Positions 39,571 to 44,901 of a stretch of DNA of 64,000 nt are shown here, one piece after another (position 1 is the stretch's first letter; each line of letters opens with the position of its first letter). Source of the DNA: Candidatus Poribacteria bacterium (lineage in GTDB: Bacteria > Poribacteria > WGA-4E > WGA-3G); contig OZ242029.1 of the NCBI GenBank assembly GCA_965205015.1, positions 672,001 through 736,000 on the forward strand. The letters are read 5' to 3'. Under the pieces are notes generated by a model, which ran no database searches, was not told the origin of the DNA, and was given only the letters and a program-made list of their open reading frames with translations. Position numbers and translations under genes: made by a program.

Positions 39571-39696
39571 TGTGAGTTCGACTTAAGGATTTCAAGGAAT
39601 TCACCACGATATACCATGTTTCTCAAGGACTTGGAACAGACATATTTAATTGGTGCTTTCCAAACACATCCCGTTGAAGGAGATTTTGCCGTGAAC

Positions 39697-42600
39697 ATGC
39701 GAGTCAAACGTTTCTTTTTCATACTCACCCTCTTATTGAGTTTTTTGCCGCTGGGTTTTGCCCAAGATCTACTACCGAGGCCGATAGTACGGATCATCTA
39801 CTTTTCTCCAAATGACCGCGCTCCGCAGCCAGACATAGATGAAAAGATAGATAGGTTAATAAAGGATGTGCAGGCATTTTACGCACAACACATGGAAAAC
39901 CACGGGTTTGACAGAAAAACTTTTCTGCTTGAAACCGACGCACAGGGAAAAGCTATCGTCCATCACGTGAAGGGCCGGTTCAACCACACATATTATCAGA
40001 ATAACTGGAGGAAAGCTGAGAGAGAATCTCTTGAACAGTCTGACAGACGAAACGCCTCTATCAATTTTATTGTGTTAGATGTAAACCTCGAAGGAATAAC
40101 GCCATGCGGTGGGGGCAGTGGAAATGGGCATGTTGGAAGAGCATTTGTTACCACCCAACCAGATTGTTTTAACGTTCCAATTATTGCGCATGAACTCGGG
40201 CACGCCTTTGGACTCTGGCACGATTACCGCCCCGTTGGCGGCAACTGGAAACGTGCCTTAGGTATCAGGGACCCTATGATAACATCTTTGTGCGCTGCGG
40301 AGTGGTTGGATGTGATTTCCGCCTTTAATGCCCCCCAAACCCCGTTCAATCAGAGAACAACAATTGAGATGCTTGGGCCGCCAACCCTCGTGGCAGCCCC
40401 GAACACCTTCCGTTTCCGCTTTAAAGTGCAAGATTCGGATGGCCTCCATCAGGTGCAACTGCACATGCGGGATCCCTTGATTGGACACGCTGGTGACTCT
40501 TTGTTGGATTATAAGGGATTAAAAGGAGTCCGCAGCAGTACCCTTGAATTTGTTAGCAGTATCCTACTGGGGCCGACGACGCATGGTGTAGTGATTGAAA
40601 GCATTGATGTGCATGGATACACACAATCCCAGAATTATCCAGTTGACCTGACTCCGCTATTTCCTCCGCCTGAAGTTGTGTCTATACCAGATGCGAATTT
40701 GGCATCGGCAATCCGGCGAGAGATTGGCAGTTCAATCACGACGCGCACGCTGCTGAATTTAACCTCTCTTGCTCTCCCTACTCGCAGAATAACAGATCTT
40801 ACCGGTCTTGAACATGCACACAATCTACTCAGCTTAAATCTTAGGCGTCAGCACATTGGTGGAGAGGGGTTTTCGGTATTAGATTTGTCACCGATTGGAA
40901 ATTTACCCCGACTGTCACGGCTGGACCTTTCTCACAATTCCCTCACGGATGTCGCACCCCTCTCGGGATTAACATCACTGAGAGAACTGTGGCTTTCTGA
41001 CAACAATATCACGGATGTCGCACCCCTCTCCGAATTAACATACCTGACACGACTGTGGCTTTCTGACAACAATATCACGGATGTCGCACCCCTCTCCGAA
41101 TTAATACAACTGAGAGAACTGTGGCTTGATGGCAACAATATCGCTGATGTCGCACCCCTCTCGGGATTGACACAACTCACAGAACTGCGGCTTTCTGGCA
41201 GAAATATCACGGATGTCGCACCCCTCTCAGGATTAACACAACTCACAGAGCTGGAGCTTCCTTACAGCAATATCACGGATGTCGCACCCCTCTCAGGATT
41301 AACACAACTGAAATACCTAAGGCTTTCTTACAGCAATATCACGGATGTCGCACCCCTCTCAGGATTAACACAACTGAAATACCTGGGGCTTCATCGCAAC
41401 AATATCACGGATGTCGCACCCCTCTCCGAATTAACACAACTGAAATACCTAAAGCTTTCTGACAACAATATCACGGATGTCGCACCCCTCTCCGAATTAA
41501 CACAACTCACAGAACTGCGGCTTTTTGGCAACAATATCGCTGATGTCGCACCCCTCTCCGAATTAACACAACTGACAAGGCTGTACCTTGATGGCAACAA
41601 TATCGCTGATGTGACACCCCTCTCCGAATTAACACAACTGAAATACCTATGGCTTCATCGCAACAAAATCACGGATGTGACACCTCTCTCGGGATTGACA
41701 CAACTCACAGAACTGTACCTTGCTGACAACAATATTACTGATGTGGCACCCCTCTTGGGATTAACACAACTGATAGAACTGAGGCTTCAGACTAACCCAC
41801 TGGGCTATGCCTCTATCCACACACACATTCCTGCCATGCAGGCAAAAGGGATCCCAATCCGTTTTCACAATGTTGTGCATCCCGCACTCCTGAAGGTCTC
41901 AGGCGATGCACAGACAGGATCGGTGGGGAATCCTCTGGCAGCTTTTATTGTCGAAGCACAGGATGAACGCGGCCAGCCAATGCCTGACGTACGCGTCAAG
42001 TTTGCAGTTGAGGCAGGTGGAGGCACGCTCAACCCAACAATCACTGCGACCGATGCCGATGGCAAGGCACAAACAATCTTGACACCCGGATGGACTCCTG
42101 ACACGACTACTATTCGCGCAACTGCCACAGGTATTACAGCATACGTCCGTTTTACAGCGACCGCCACCGTGCTGACAGATCGCCGTGCTGAAGATGTCAA
42201 TGCGGACGGTGTTGTTGATGTGGAGGACCTCGTCCTTGTGGCATCCAGTTTCGGGGCGGTGCCGACTCCCAGCACGCTTCCCGATACGGACATCAACGAT
42301 GACGGCGACATCAATCAAGAAGATGTCGAATTGGTTTTAGCGGCACTTGAGGCAGCACCCGCTGCGCCTTCCCTGGATACGCAGTGGACTGTATCAAGCC
42401 TTCAGCGGTGGATCGCAGAAGCGAAGCAACGGAATATAGGTGATGCTACTTTTCAGCGAGGCATAAAAATACTTGAGAAACTGCTCGCAGATTTGCTCCC
42501 GAAACAGACACTACTTCTCGCCAACTATCCGAACCCGTTCAACCCGGAGACGTGGATACCCTATCAACTGTCAGAACCAGGAGATGTGATAGTGCATATC

Positions 42601-42795
42601 TATGGGGTGAACGGCGTATTAGTGAGGACGTTGGGATTGGGGCATCAACTTGCGGGAACGTATCAAAGCCGGACGCGCGCGGCGTATTGGGACGGACACA
42701 ATCAACTGGGGGAACCTGTGGCAAGTGGTGTCTATTTCTATACATTGTCTGCCGGCGATTTCACGGCGACGCGGAAGATGTTGATACGGAAGTAG
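39697..42795 (+). CDS. Secreted metzincin-motif + internalin-like LRR + Ig + dockerin-like + FlgD-Ig protein
   Basis: HELGHAFGLWH; IPDANL cap; 22-aa LRRs; DVNADGVVDVEDL; NYPNPFNPETWIPYQL C-terminal domain; start placed at MRVKRFF. Confidence 0.88.
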   Translation: MRVKRFFFILTLLLSFLPLGFAQDLLPRPIVRIIYFSPNDRAPQPDIDEKIDRLIKDVQAFYAQHMENHGFDRKTFLLETDAQGKAIVHHVKGRFNHTYYQNNWRKAERESLEQSDRRNASINFIVLDVNLEGITPCGGGSGNGHVGRAFVTTQPDCFNVPIIAHELGHAFGLWHDYRPVGGNWKRALGIRDPMITSLCAAEWLDVISAFNAPQTPFNQRTTIEMLGPPTLVAAPNTFRFRFKVQDSDGLHQVQLHMRDPLIGHAGDSLLDYKGLKGVRSSTLEFVSSILLGPTTHGVVIESIDVHGYTQSQNYPVDLTPLFPPPEVVSIPDANLASAIRREIGSSITTRTLLNLTSLALPTRRITDLTGLEHAHNLLSLNLRRQHIGGEGFSVLDLSPIGNLPRLSRLDLSHNSLTDVAPLSGLTSLRELWLSDNNITDVAPLSELTYLTRLWLSDNNITDVAPLSELIQLRELWLDGNNIADVAPLSGLTQLTELRLSGRNITDVAPLSGLTQLTELELPYSNITDVAPLSGLTQLKYLRLSYSNITDVAPLSGLTQLKYLGLHRNNITDVAPLSELTQLKYLKLSDNNITDVAPLSELTQLTELRLFGNNIADVAPLSELTQLTRLYLDGNNIADVTPLSELTQLKYLWLHRNKITDVTPLSGLTQLTELYLADNNITDVAPLLGLTQLIELRLQTNPLGYASIHTHIPAMQAKGIPIRFHNVVHPALLKVSGDAQTGSVGNPLAAFIVEAQDERGQPMPDVRVKFAVEAGGGTLNPTITATDADGKAQTILTPGWTPDTTTIRATATGITAYVRFTATATVLTDRRAEDVNADGVVDVEDLVLVASSFGAVPTPSTLPDTDINDDGDINQEDVELVLAALEAAPAAPSLDTQWTVSSLQRWIAEAKQRNIGDATFQRGIKILEKLLADLLPKQTLLLANYPNPFNPETWIPYQLSEPGDVIVHIYGVNGVLVRTLGLGHQLAGTYQSRTRAAYWDGHNQLGEPVASGVYFYTLSAGDFTATRKMLIRK
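40942..41799 (+). repeat. 13 x 66-bp coding tandem repeat (LRR)
   Basis: ATCACGGATGTCGCACCCCTCTC-like core recurs every 66 bp. Confidence 0.93.
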
Positions 42796-42827
42796 GATGC
42801 AGCAGCGTTTCATTGATGTATCCGAGT

Positions 42828-42856
42828 TTGACAAATATAACGCGACGGTGTACAAT
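42828..42856 (+). promoter_or_regulatory. sigma70-type promoter with extended -10
   Basis: TTGACA-17 nt-(TG)TACAAT upstream of interrupted gene at 42970. Confidence 0.7.
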
Positions 42857-42997
42857 TTAACAAAGCCATTTGGAGGAATCTCCTGCTCAATATTAACCTC
42901 AGCTAACGTTTCGGTTCTAAACTGAGCTCATATTAATCACGCGCAGTATTTAGGAAGAAGGGGATAAAAATGAATGCAACTATTGAATCAACGATAG

Positions 42998-43276
42998 GTC
43001 AGTGACCCAAACCTAAAGGATTGGGACCTGTCCACTACGCCAACCAAGGCTATAGGGTGGACGAGGGCAACTCATTGACTACCGTAAAATATCGCAGATA
43101 CAGGAGTTGTGGTAGACTCCAACTATGTCAAGAAAACGCTATACCGAACTGGTAGTAGGTATAGTTAAGGATACTCCCCTCGTCTTTGTCCACTTGGTAT
43201 CTGTGATCGGGAAGGGGCAACATATACCCGCTATTAGCGGAGGGTCTCCGAAAGGTCATTACCTGTTTTCTTGACA
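42998..43276 (+). ncRNA. omegaRNA / HEARO-like structured RNA scaffold
   Basis: GTCAGTGA pairs with TCATTGAC (43072-79); ATCGCAGATAC/GTATCTGTGAT; GGATACTCCCCTCGTC loop complementary to downstream AGGGG; layout recalls HEARO/omegaRNA. Confidence 0.65.
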
Positions 43277-43484
43277 GCACCGGGTCAGGTCAAAGTAAGT
43301 TCTGGTGACAGCAGAAACGAAACGAAGCAGCCTACTGGGAAGAATCGCCAAAGCAGCACCGTGGCGAAAAAACGGACTGCACTTTTCTAGAAGTTTCTTT
43401 TTTTAACCTGGACCTTTGGTCCTTTCCAAGAGGGCGGATTTTCCTCCCAAACTTAAAAGTTTGGGTTTCCAATCCGTAAATCTG
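42998..43484 (+). mobile_element. Non-autonomous IS200/IS605-type (IscB/OMEGA-like) element without ORF
   Basis: Subterminal hairpins CCCAAACCTAAAGGATTGGG (43006-25) and CCCAAACTTAAAAGTTTGGG (43446-65); starts GTCA, followed by ATGA; no target duplication; boundary ambiguous by one G. Confidence 0.8.
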
Positions 43485-43712
43485 ATGAATTAACAACCGA
43501 TCCGAAAACACCCTCGGAAGGGAAGCAGATGATCCCTCATATCGCAACAGAACAAGCAGATTCAAAACAAATAGCACTTATGGACTATGCCGAGGAACAA
43601 CTTCGGAAATTAGCAACTTCTCGCGGATTAGATTGGGAGGCTATGACCGATGAGGACCGCATAGATTTTGTTGATAACCTCGTCCACGAGGACCGTAAAT
43701 AAGGAGTTAATA

Positions 43713-44741
43713 ATGAAAGAAGTCAAGGTAGGTATTGTTGGGTGTGGTGGTATTGCCGGAGGTAAACACCTTCCGGGTCATAAAGGCGTCAAAGGCGTTT
43801 CGATTATCGCCGCGTGTGACATCGACGCAGCCCGTGCGAAAGCGTTCGCCAAAAAGCACGACATCCCACACGTTTTCAGCGATTACGAGGAATTAGCGGC
43901 AATGGATGAGTTGGATGCGGTGAGCGTTTGTACACCGAACAACTTCCACGCCGGTCCAACGATCGCGGCGTTGAAGGCGGGAAAACACGTTATCTGTGAA
44001 AAGCCGATCGCTGCTAATGCGGTTGATGGACAAGCGATGGTGGATGCGCAGAAAGCGAGTGGTAAAGTTCTACAGATCGGGTTACAATCTCGATTCCGTG
44101 CTGAGGCGCGCACCCTCCGCAAACTCTACGATGAAGGCTTTTTCGGAGACATCTATTATGCCCGTGCCATGTCAATGCGGCGGCGTGGGGTGCCTGCTTC
44201 ACCCTCTTTTCTGAGTAAAGCCATCGCAGGCGGCGGACCGTTGATTGACATCGGTGTGCATATCCTTGATGTGTTGCTCTGGATGATCGGTTGCCCGAAA
44301 CCGATTGAGGCGTTCGGGATGACAGCAACGAAGTTTGGACATAAAGAGAATGTCATCAACCCGTGGGGCAAATGGGATCCTGAAGATTTTGAAGTAGAAG
44401 ATTTCGCGATGGGCACTGTCCGCTTTGAGGGGGACCTGACGGTGACCTTGGAGACGGCATGGGCATCGCATATTGAGAACATCGGTGGGACGTTCTTTAT
44501 GGGGGATTTAGCCGGTGCGACCTATGAACCGCTTCAGATTTATCTTGATAAGAAAGATGAGATGGTGAATTATACACCGAAACTTCTTACCGGATTACCG
44601 AGTGAATTTGAATCGTTCCACACGGCTATTCGAGAAGGGTTGCCGTCTCCTGTTCCTGCTGAAGAGGTATTGAACGTCGCGAAAATCTTCGATGCGCTCT
44701 ACGAATCGGCGCGGATCGGTCGTTCCGTCCCGATTTTTTAA
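43713..44741 (+). CDS. Gfo/Idh/MocA family oxidoreductase
   Basis: VGIVGCGGIA, HVICEKP, GGGPLIDIGVH; SD AAGGAG before ATG 43713. Confidence 0.93.
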   Translation: MKEVKVGIVGCGGIAGGKHLPGHKGVKGVSIIAACDIDAARAKAFAKKHDIPHVFSDYEELAAMDELDAVSVCTPNNFHAGPTIAALKAGKHVICEKPIAANAVDGQAMVDAQKASGKVLQIGLQSRFRAEARTLRKLYDEGFFGDIYYARAMSMRRRGVPASPSFLSKAIAGGGPLIDIGVHILDVLLWMIGCPKPIEAFGMTATKFGHKENVINPWGKWDPEDFEVEDFAMGTVRFEGDLTVTLETAWASHIENIGGTFFMGDLAGATYEPLQIYLDKKDEMVNYTPKLLTGLPSEFESFHTAIREGLPSPVPAEEVLNVAKIFDALYESARIGRSVPIF

Positions 44742-44750
44742 TTTACCCTG

Positions 44751-44901
44751 CGGGCAGGCACAAGACCTGAGGATACGGGTAGGCACAAGACCTGAGGATA
44801 CGGGTAGGCATAAGACCTGAGGATACGGGTAGGCACAAGACCTAAGGATACGGGTAGGCACAAGACCTGAGGATACGGGCAGGCACAAGACCTGCCCCTA
44901 C
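44751..44901. repeat. 25-bp tandem array (5 units plus a complete REP-like palindrome)
   Basis: CGGGYAGGCACAAGACCTGAGGATA x5 then CGGGCAGGCACAAGACCTGCCCCTAC. Confidence 0.92.

What the first reader, a model, noticed from the sequence alone, without database searches (positions are those of the whole stretch)
43091..43432. Element interior looks like an enlarged structured RNA, not decayed iscB
Seen: a perfect 12-bp long-range complement TGTCAAGAAAAC (43126-37)/GTTTTCTTGACA (43265-76) that crosses the ATCGCAGATAC/GTATCTGTGAT helix (pseudoknot or alternative fold). Where iscB would lie there are nested stems: CACCGGG/TTCTGGTG, AGAAAC/GTTTCT, GCAGCC/GGACTGC, TCGCCA/TGGCGA, GGACC/GGTCC. I see no PLMP, RuvC or HNH remnant in the three forward frames. 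Inference: extra RNA domains replaced the protein gene, giving a possible new omegaRNA-derived ncRNA class (conformational switch, ribozyme, or RNA-level removal from the host mRNA).
Basis: partly seen in the sequence, partly recalled or inferred. Interest (0 to 1): 0.72.

Follow-up and report, generated by a model that had tools for sequence, protein, structure and literature searches.

The report
Protein-less IsrB guide-RNA mobile element
This stretch is a 487-base mobile element that carries only the guide RNA of an IsrB-type DNA nickase, enlarged by a conserved double-pseudoknot tail and with no nuclease gene, and here it has landed inside a small host gene.

Summary
The finding lies inside a discrete 487-nt insertion (42998-43484). 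A contig from another sequencing run joins 42996 directly to 43484, so an empty site exists. The organism is a Candidatus Poribacteria bacterium.

The first ~260 nt are homologous to the RNA that sits directly upstream of IsrB genes in 1.26-kb sister elements. The IsrB of one sister, L127, matches PDB 8dmb at E 2.9e-40. The window copy has no nuclease gene and no detectable remnant of one.

In place of the gene is a ~126-nt RNA tail (43259-43384). Across 39 distinct copies it folds as two H-type pseudoknots: 88% of cells are paired, and 17 of 32 pairs change on both sides. The tail was found in 48 loci, none with an IsrB-like frame, and in none of 26 loci with such a frame.

The 12-bp "crossing" helix is specific to the window copy. 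Two nested stems are right and three are mis-paired or subfamily-only.

Verdict: a guide-RNA-only IS200/IS605-type element with a new accessory RNA domain. What that domain does is open.

The parts
42828..42856 (+). Promoter-like site of the host gene (TTGACA, 17 nt, TACAAT), upstream of the element and reading into it
   Evidence: 11 of 12 consensus matches. A consensus match only; its function is inferred.
42970..42997 (+). 5' piece of the interrupted small host gene (start codon plus 9 codons and 1 base). Its last ~20 nt would be the guide of the omegaRNA.
   Evidence: removing 42998-43484 in silico gives one open 81-codon frame; an empty-site contig exists. The guide role is inferred from IsrB/IscB geometry.
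42998..43484 (+). The mobile element itself: 487 nt, with no protein gene
   Evidence: table 8, X4 record 18 joins 42996 to 43484. Loose ends at 42998 come from other copies. Searches show sharp common ends in all copies.
42998..43258 (+). omegaRNA core: 5' stem 42998-43004/43073-79, hairpins 43006-25 and 43029-63, helix 43091-101/43197-207, hairpin 43103-20, CCCC/GGGG 43176-79/43214-17, hairpins 43228-40 and 43247-56
   Evidence: 88.5% of cells paired against 37-43% when slid; 46 of 79 pairs change on both sides; the core profile hits the IsrB-bearing elements.
43138..43165 (+). Hairpin absent from the examined IsrB-bearing cores. Its loop GGUAG (43151-55) can pair with UUACC (43259-63).
   Evidence: all 8 stem pairs change on both sides. 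The loop contact is 95.7% paired but varies on one side only; the core match is 171-186 nt in seven IsrB-flanked loci (L094, L099, L126, L127, L159, L165, L168) and 223-227 nt in hairpin-bearing copies (window, L120, L128).
43259..43384 (+). Extra 3' domain: closing helix 43263-69/43324-30; pseudoknot 1 (43278-82/43303-07 crossing 43295-302/43313-20); pseudoknot 2 (43345-49/43363-67 crossing 43353-59/43374-80)
   Evidence: on A2: 88.3% paired against 37-52% when slid; 17 of 32 pairs change on both sides; 0 of 500 shuffles reach it; never found with an IsrB-like frame.
43385..43432 (+). Variable linker with a U-rich run and the GGACC/GGTCC hairpin (43410-22), shared only with a few copies
   Evidence: the 3' arms are gaps in 33 to 38 of 43 copies for GGACC/GGTCC.
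43433..43484 (+). Terminal hairpin end (transposase-recognised type), preceded by an SD-like purine run. The same end is found at IsrB elements and, reverse-complemented, at the gene-start side of tnpB-like elements.
   Evidence: helices 14-17, covary.
43485..43488 (+). ATGA: host-derived target motif next to the element (the expected TAM)
   Evidence: ATG in 53 of 53 sites and A at +4 in 51 of 53; it is present in the empty site. DtIsrB TAM is NTGA.
43485..43702 (+). 3' piece of the interrupted host gene; an internal ATG at 43529 opens the 57-aa frame

Best explanation
42998-43484 is a non-autonomous IS200/IS605-family element of the IsrB type (a palindrome-associated element). It keeps the two transposase-recognised hairpin ends and the omegaRNA but has no nuclease gene.

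The RNA is read on the + strand from the host promoter. The ~20 nt of host sequence just left of the element serve as the guide, the scaffold starts at 42998, and ATGA on the right is the target-adjacent motif. IsrB made by full-length sister elements elsewhere in the genome would load this RNA in trans and nick any allele that has lost the element, so that repair copies the element back. A Y1 transposase made elsewhere would move it.

Compared with the RNA of IsrB-bearing sisters, this lineage has gained an internal hairpin and a ~126-nt 3' tail made of two H-type pseudoknots that docks on that hairpin. The tail most likely stabilises and insulates the guide RNA, which here is fused to a host mRNA rather than to the IsrB mRNA.

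Shown: element boundaries and the empty site, homology of the core to IsrB-linked RNA, absence of a gene or remnant, and the covarying fold of the tail. Inferred: action in trans with IsrB, the guide and TAM roles, and the role of the tail.
For: Empty site: X4 record 18 joins 42996 to 43484.

Family size:
- The element DNA matches 56 of 175 Poribacteria genomes.
- The tail model matches 38 of 150 genomes, up to 22 times in one genome.
- 44 protein-less copies (356-610 nt) and 12 full copies (1259-1294 nt) share the same ends.

Partner protein:
- The 341-aa ORF of L127 matches 8dmb IsrB at E 2.9e-40.
- RRXRR (PF14239) matches 93 of 175 genomes.
- Y1_Tnp matches 5 of 5 relatives tested.

RNA modules:
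- The core profile hits 25 of 26 loci that have an IsrB-like frame. The tail profile hits 0 of 26, and 48 loci without such a frame.
- HEARO weakly matches the sister RNAs exactly from the element start: 23.5 and 16.6 bits.

Strand: G-U cells outnumber A-C cells 278 to 103 in the core and 169 to 43 in the tail.

Structure.

Flanks:
- Right flank ATGA in 51 of 53 sites, matching the NTGA TAM of DtIsrB.
- No target duplication: mean best flank match 4.58 vs 4.46 in controls.
- A promoter-like site lies upstream on the same strand.

Against: - No RNA data: no RNA run is listed, so transcription, RNA ends and processing are unknown.
- The window's own genome is not held and the 64-kb window has no IsrB, so a trans partner in this very genome is assumed from relatives.
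- Rfam gives no match for the window copy even at E<=10, and the sister RNAs are far below HEARO's gathering score of 83.
- The adaptor-pseudoknot candidate is only 67.9% paired, and the nexus-type CCCC/GGGG pairing never covaries.
- In the window copy the 12-bp helix (-15.3 kcal/mol) competes with the tail's closing helix, and pseudoknot 1's inner stem is weak by alignment columns (my hand reading of A2). This particular copy may therefore fold differently or be decaying.
- The proposed role of the tail rests on no test.
Confidence: 0.72

Rival explanations
1. The tail serves the host gene rather than IsrB. Because these elements sit between a gene's ribosome-binding site and its start codon, the double-pseudoknot tail plus the SD-hairpin end would keep transcription and translation of the downstream gene going once the IsrB ORF, and the ribosomes on it, are gone. 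It would act as an anti-termination or translation platform and so lower the cost of insertion.
For: - The terminal ATG opens a frame of 50 aa or more at 40 of 53 sites.
- An SD-like motif lies 4-16 nt before the insertion point at 26 of 52 sites, against 7.2% in controls.
- In L127 the IsrB stop codon lies in the loop of the terminal hairpin, about 35 nt before the host ATG (hand reading).
- The tail occurs only where the ORF is missing.
Against: - No assay has been done.
- The window copy lies inside a coding frame, where such a role is moot.
- The simple deletion derivative L092 sits at the trpB start without any tail.
Confidence: 0.18
2. One reading: the enlarged RNA is a conformational switch, a self-cleaving ribozyme, or a self-splicing element that removes itself from the host mRNA.
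For: - In the window the 12-bp helix and the closing helix of the tail use the same bases (43263-76), so two folds are possible.
- Removing the element restores the host reading frame.
- Introns fused to IS200/IS605 elements (IStrons) are known (passage).
Against: - The 12-bp helix is not conserved.
- No intron or ribozyme family matches at E<=10.
- The base before the element varies (G, A, T or C), whereas group I introns need U there (recalled).
- Frame restoration is explained by DNA-level insertion, as the empty site shows.
- Most copies lie upstream of start codons, where splicing is not needed.
Confidence: 0.06
3. The tail is just a decayed piece of the isrB gene or neutral filler left by a deletion.
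For: A weak, non-significant similarity to IsrB residues ~13-40 recurs at the same place in L101, L170/171 and the window (E 0.76 to 6.8). Real deletion derivatives exist (L092).
Against: - 17 of 32 tail pairs change on both sides and 88% of cells are paired.
- G-U exceeds A-C by 169 to 43.
- The tail is conserved in 38 of 150 genomes.
- No protein match is significant.
Confidence: 0.03
4. The RNA is on the minus strand, as a TnpB-type right-end guide RNA.
For: The right-hand 85 nt of the element recur, reverse-complemented, next to the start of tnpB-like genes.
Against: - IsrB in the sister elements is on the same strand as the + strand here.
- G-U cells far exceed A-C cells on the + strand.
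- The tnpB-linked loci share only the terminal hairpin, not the core or the tail.
Confidence: 0.01

Closest known systems
IsrB omegaRNA (Desulfovirgula thermocuniculi IsrB, PDB 8dmb; Hirano et al. 2022, PMC9581776; passages read)
   Same: - It lies at the transposon end directly upstream of an IsrB gene in the sister elements.
- A 5' stem encloses two hairpins, followed by a long central helix with embedded hairpins and a crossing C-rich/G-rich pairing.
- The core of ~261 nt compares with a 262-nt scaffold.
- The ATGA flank fits the NTGA TAM.
   Different: - There is no IsrB gene in cis.
- A further ~126 nt of two pseudoknots follows the point where the described scaffold ends.
- Sequence similarity to any published omegaRNA was not tested, because none was available to the tools.
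HEARO RNA (Rfam RF02033)
   Same: The sister-element RNAs match the whole model (positions 1-211), starting exactly at the element start.
   Different: Those scores are 23.5 and 16.6 bits against a gathering score of 83. The window copy does not match at E<=10.
Palindrome-associated transposable elements (PATEs) that encode omegaRNAs, and standalone omegaRNAs (Meers et al. preprint 10.1101/2023.03.14.532601, passages; statement in PMC9581776)
   Same: Same transposon ends as protein-coding relatives, no protein gene, a guide RNA that must be used in trans, and mobilisation in trans.
   Different: The passages describe minimal elements. Here the RNA has been enlarged by a conserved structured domain that the full-length relatives lack, and the family is IsrB-linked. 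Supplements and figures of those papers could not be seen, so I cannot rule out that such extensions are shown there.
IStrons (group I intron fused to an IS200/IS605 element; review passage, preprint listing)
   Same: A large structured RNA carried by an IS200/IS605-type element that can sit inside genes.
   Different: No intron family matches. The conserved motif lies 3' of the RNA, not 5'. The base before the element is not conserved. No nuclease gene is present.

Membership tests
IsrB/IscB omegaRNA (HEARO) | Encoded at the transposon end directly upstream of, and co-oriented with, an iscB/isrB gene | tested here: met
   Met for the homologous core in sister elements. In L127 the RNA is at 1501-1705 and the IsrB ORF at 1708-2733. 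The core profile hits 25 of 26 IsrB-frame loci. The window copy itself has no gene.
IsrB/IscB omegaRNA (HEARO) | Reaches Rfam RF02033 gathering score | tested here: not met
   The window has no match at E<=10. The sisters score 23.5 and 16.6 bits against 83.
IsrB/IscB omegaRNA (HEARO) | 5' stem right after the guide, enclosing stem-loops, followed by a nexus-type central helix | tested here: met
   42998-43004/43073-79 is 96.3% paired with 4 covarying pairs. 43091-101/43197-207 is 98.7% paired with 7 covarying pairs.
IsrB/IscB omegaRNA (HEARO) | Adaptor and nexus pseudoknots | tested here: inconclusive
   The CCCC/GGGG candidate is 91% paired but has no compensatory change. The adaptor candidate is 67.9% paired.
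IsrB/IscB omegaRNA (HEARO) | Target-adjacent motif next to the guide-matching flank | tested here: met
   ATGA at 51 of 53 sites. It is host-derived, since it is in the empty site. DtIsrB TAM is NTGA.
IsrB/IscB omegaRNA (HEARO) | Binds the nuclease and guides DNA nicking | not testable with these tools
   Needs biochemistry.
IS200/IS605-family non-autonomous element (PATE) | Subterminal hairpins shared with protein-coding relatives, and no protein gene | tested here: met
IS200/IS605-family non-autonomous element (PATE) | Precise presence/absence polymorphism without target-site duplication | tested here: met
   Empty-site contig. Flank similarity of 4.58 vs 4.46 in controls, over 55 elements.
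IS200/IS605-family non-autonomous element (PATE) | Y1 (HUH) transposase available in the genome | tested here: inconclusive
   PF01797 matches 5 of 5 related genomes. The window's own genome is not held. Which TnpA recognises these ends was not tested.
Group I intron / IStron | Intron core recognisable, and a conserved U before the 5' splice site | tested here: not met
   No Rfam intron match at E<=10. The base before the element is G, A, T or C. The U requirement is recalled, not taken from a call.

The most novel reading that the evidence does not exclude
The ~126-nt double-pseudoknot tail, together with the inserted hairpin it docks on, is a new functional RNA module that adapts a guide-RNA-only transposon to life without its nuclease gene. 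It could help the RNA win IsrB made by other elements, or it could keep the downstream host gene transcribed and translated after an insertion exactly at its start codon. Either way, a selfish guide RNA would have evolved its own accessory domain.
Probability: 0.3. Interest if true: 0.75.

Novelty: new variant of a known kind. Interest (0 to 1): 0.6.

Why it matters
Transposon guide RNAs are the ancestors of CRISPR guide RNAs and are being engineered as compact genome editors.

This is a widespread natural lineage: the tail model matches 38 of 150 sampled Poribacteria genomes, and 20 or more times in two of them. In this lineage the guide RNA has shed its nuclease gene and gained a conserved, covarying RNA domain. 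That makes one question directly testable: can guide RNAs evolve accessory modules for stability, for competing for the nuclease, or for sparing the host gene?

The same data show IsrB-type elements sitting precisely at ATGA start codons, with an SD-plus-hairpin end. This is a simple, checkable case of how a transposon's target motif and host gene expression fit together.

Tried and rejected
- The whole genome of the window is not held, so copy number and IsrB or TnpA in this very genome could not be checked.
- The window holds no second copy.
- Single-sequence folding gave only modest z-scores on both strands, -2.52 and -2.20, and could not tell the strands apart.
- RNAalifold on the full 731-column alignment was uninformative. 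A home-made all-against-all pair scan was too noisy. I then built helices by eye and tested them with the count of structure pairs.
- No RNA holder was listed among the sequencing runs, so there is no expression evidence either way.
- The one metagenome scan used too loose a pattern. Nothing is known about occurrence outside Poribacteria.
- The target-site duplication test was negative.
- A candidate pairing of 43025-30 with 43286-91 clashes with two well-supported hairpins and was not pursued.
- Literature searches found nothing on these elements: 'Poribacteria'+'IscB' returned 0 papers; 'IsrB'+'start codon'+'insertion' returned 8 papers, none on this by title or abstract; the PATE phrase plus 'guide RNA' returned 3. 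Any claim of 'not in print' rests on these searches only. Supplements and figures were not visible.
- In the core tree, tail-bearing and tail-less rows are mixed: 9 changes by parsimony, at least 5 of them forced by well-supported branches. A single clean origin of the tail lineage is therefore not shown. Recombination between copies is my reading, and it is untested.

Full report
**What is in the window.**
- The finding (43091-43432) lies in the ~900-nt spacer between a 1059-aa secreted-type protein gene (39616-42795) and a Gfo/Idh/MocA oxidoreductase gene.
- The 12/12 complement 43126-37 x 43265-76 and the 11-nt helix 43091-101 x 43197-207 are there, and they cross.
- Two similar hairpins sit at 43005-26 and 43445-66.
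- A perfect inverted repeat of 12 bp or more arose in 2 of 300 dinucleotide shuffles.
- Rfam finds nothing in the 64 kb at gathering score, and nothing relevant at E<=10 in 42700-43800.

**Organism and locus.**
- The oxidoreductase has 81-96% identical orthologues in 80 loci, 76 of them titled Candidatus or uncultured Poribacteria MAGs.
- None of those loci matches 42796-43710 beyond one 29-nt hit, and synteny ends at about 43700.
- No genome is held for the window itself.

**It is one copy of a dispersed element.**
- The stretch matched all 5 Poribacteria genomes tried first, and 56 of 175 in the phylum.
- Aligned copies begin sharply with GTCA(G/A)T(G/A)ACC plus a hairpin. They end with a long hairpin followed by ...TTTTG, and ATG follows immediately.
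- I delimited 44 protein-less copies of 356-610 nt and 12 copies of 1259-1294 nt.

**The long copies name the family.**
- L127:1501-2765 has the same start, about 205 nt of homologous RNA, then a 341-aa ORF with a PLMP motif, and the same terminal hairpin.
- That ORF matches the IsrB chain of PDB 8dmb at E 2.9e-40, and IscB chains only weakly.
- PF14239 (RRXRR) matches 93 of 175 Poribacteria genomes, often about 30 nt downstream of partial matches to the window RNA.
- Rfam HEARO weakly matches the sister RNAs, starting exactly at the element start: 23.5 and 16.6 bits, against a gathering score of 83.
- The geometry agrees with published passages. [quoted passage not shown] The DtIsrB omegaRNA is 284 nt with an NTGA TAM.

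**It is a real insertion.**
- A 487-nt contig from another run (X4, record 18, depth 35.6) covers 42793-42996 and continues without a break at 43484-43739. A relative therefore lacks exactly these 487 nt.
- Other copies with other left flanks start at 42998 (loose ends).
- Removing 42998-43484 in silico gives one open 81-codon frame.
- Relatives of the downstream frame occur in 108 of 175 genomes, and the closest have open frames of 83-96 aa. Two database homologues are 84 aa.
- So the element sits inside a small host gene, at an internal ATGA.
- Flanks show no target duplication: mean best match 4.58 vs 4.46 in controls over 55 elements.

**No gene and no remnant.**
- Twelve trimmed IsrB proteins gave no tblastn hit to the window at E<=10. 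Their profile gave only E 6.8.
- Across the other protein-less copies nothing scored below E 0.2, apart from the positive control.
- That control is the plain deletion derivative L092/L097, which keeps the IsrB C-terminus (E about 1e-18).
- The window holds no IsrB anywhere.

**The extra RNA.**
- A profile of 42998-43224 (the core) hits both kinds of element. A profile of 43225-43384 hits 48 loci, none with an IsrB-like frame, and 0 of 26 loci that have such a frame.
- A covariance model of the tail matches 38 of 150 sampled genomes, with 22 and 20 matches in two of them.
- By hand comparison, none of the listed tail matches lies within 10 kb of a listed RRXRR match. Only 150 of 467 RRXRR matches were listed.
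- On alignment A2 (41 copies, 39 distinct) I tested a model made of:
  - a closing helix, 43263-69/43324-30;
  - pseudoknot 1, 43278-82/43303-07 crossing 43295-302/43313-20;
  - pseudoknot 2, 43345-49/43363-67 crossing 43353-59/43374-80.
- The result was 88.3% of cells paired against 37-52% for slid partners, 17 of 32 pairs with changes on both sides, and 101 such cells against 39.8 +/- 5.9 in shuffles (0 of 500 reach it).
- The closing helix is invariant and so untested.
- The core model on A1 is 88.5% paired, with 46 of 79 pairs compensatory.
- G-U cells exceed A-C cells (278 to 103 and 169 to 43), so the + strand is the RNA strand.
- Tail-bearing copies mostly also carry a hairpin (43138-65) that the examined IsrB-linked cores lack. 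Its loop can pair with UUACC at the start of the tail: 95.7% paired, varying on one side only. There are exceptions: L120 has the hairpin without the tail, and L125 the reverse.

- On A1, 43091-101/43197-207 is excellent.
- The 12-bp helix keeps only its invariant AAAAC/GUUUU end, and cognate arms pair no better than non-cognate ones.
- CACCG/UGGUG and UCGCC/GGCGA are right.
- GCAGCC/GGACTGC is mis-paired, and AGAAAC/GTTTCT and GGACC/GGTCC belong to a few copies only.

**How it most likely works.**
- A promoter-like site with 11 of 12 consensus matches lies at 42828-56 on the + strand.
- Transcription from there would give guide (left flank), scaffold and tail in one RNA.
- IsrB from full-length elements would use it in trans, and Y1 transposases are present in 5 of 5 relatives tested.
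- Guide-RNA-only PATEs are mentioned in print, so the kind is known.
- The added domain is what I could not find described (searches; supplements not visible).
- What the tail does is inference. I favour stabilising and insulating a guide RNA that is fused to a host mRNA. A role in keeping the downstream gene expressed is the main rival.

**Context seen on the way.**
- Across 53 independent sites, the base after the element is always ATG, and A follows in 51 of 53.
- That ATG opens a frame of 50 aa or more in 40 of 53.
- The left flank carries an SD-like motif in 26 of 52, against 7.2% in controls.
- These elements therefore mostly sit exactly between a gene's ribosome-binding site and its start codon. 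The window copy is an exception.
- In the core tree, tail-bearing and tail-less rows are interleaved, needing at least 5 changes, which suggests recombination among copies.

Noticed in passing
L081-L188 (53 insertion sites); window 43485-43488: IsrB-type elements, both full and protein-less, sit immediately before ATGA. In 40 of 53 sites that ATG is the start of a host frame of 50 aa or more (TrpB-like, Gfo/Idh/MocA-like and signal-peptide proteins among them). An SD-like motif lies 4-16 nt before the insertion point in 26 of 52 sites, against 7.2% in controls. The element end carries its own AGGAG just 5' of the terminal hairpin.
   Followed up: partly
L127:2700-2765: In the full-length element the IsrB reading frame runs into the terminal hairpin and stops in its loop, about 35 nt before the host gene's ATG. 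Nine of 12 IsrB C-termini end alike. This could couple host-gene translation to IsrB translation.
   Followed up: no
L083, L085, L089, L090, L091, L093, L100 (about positions 1360-1580 when oriented): The last ~85 nt of the window element (43406-43490) recur, reverse-complemented, upstream of tnpB-like genes. Between the shared end and the gene start lies a TTGAC-type -35 box followed by TATAAT (hand reading). IsrB- and TnpB-type elements here seem to share one kind of end.
   Followed up: partly
L092:1501-1856 (G005:C1:2377106...): A 356-nt derivative without hairpin or tail keeps the last ~40 codons of isrB. It sits at the start of a tryptophan synthase beta-like gene, whose start codon is the ATG next to the element.
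   Followed up: partly
Tree of 76 core sequences: Tail-bearing and IsrB-bearing cores are interleaved. For example, window+L101 group with IsrB-linked L126, and L122/L183 with the tail-less L157. The tail label needs 9 changes by parsimony, at least 5 of them forced by well-supported branches. This points to mosaic elements and recombination.
   Followed up: partly
window 42970-42997 and 43485-43530: The restored host frame carries two similar 5-codon units side by side, one on each side of the insertion point. The closest homologues have only one (hand reading). The empty-site contig shows that this arrangement exists without the element.
   Followed up: partly
window 43291-43398: Contigs in runs X1 and X3 (depths 508 and 1894) match 42998-43291 at about 90% and then skip to 43398. 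This is a paralogous copy with another or no stretch there (table 5).
   Followed up: no
G111 and G114: Two genomes hold 22 and 20 matches to the tail model, 22 being the scoring cap. They include runs of equal scores at 65-67 bits, which looks like a recent burst of a diverged subfamily.
   Followed up: no
window ~44595-44890: Minus-strand frames here repeat the same ~25-residue string. This implies a tandem DNA repeat between the oxidoreductase gene and the next gene.
   Followed up: no
window 42501-42567 and 42702-42768: Depth from contigs of four runs is 10-100 times that of neighbouring bins (table 2). The C-terminal part of the 1059-aa protein gene is shared by very many genes (a sorting-domain-like repeat family).
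   Followed up: no
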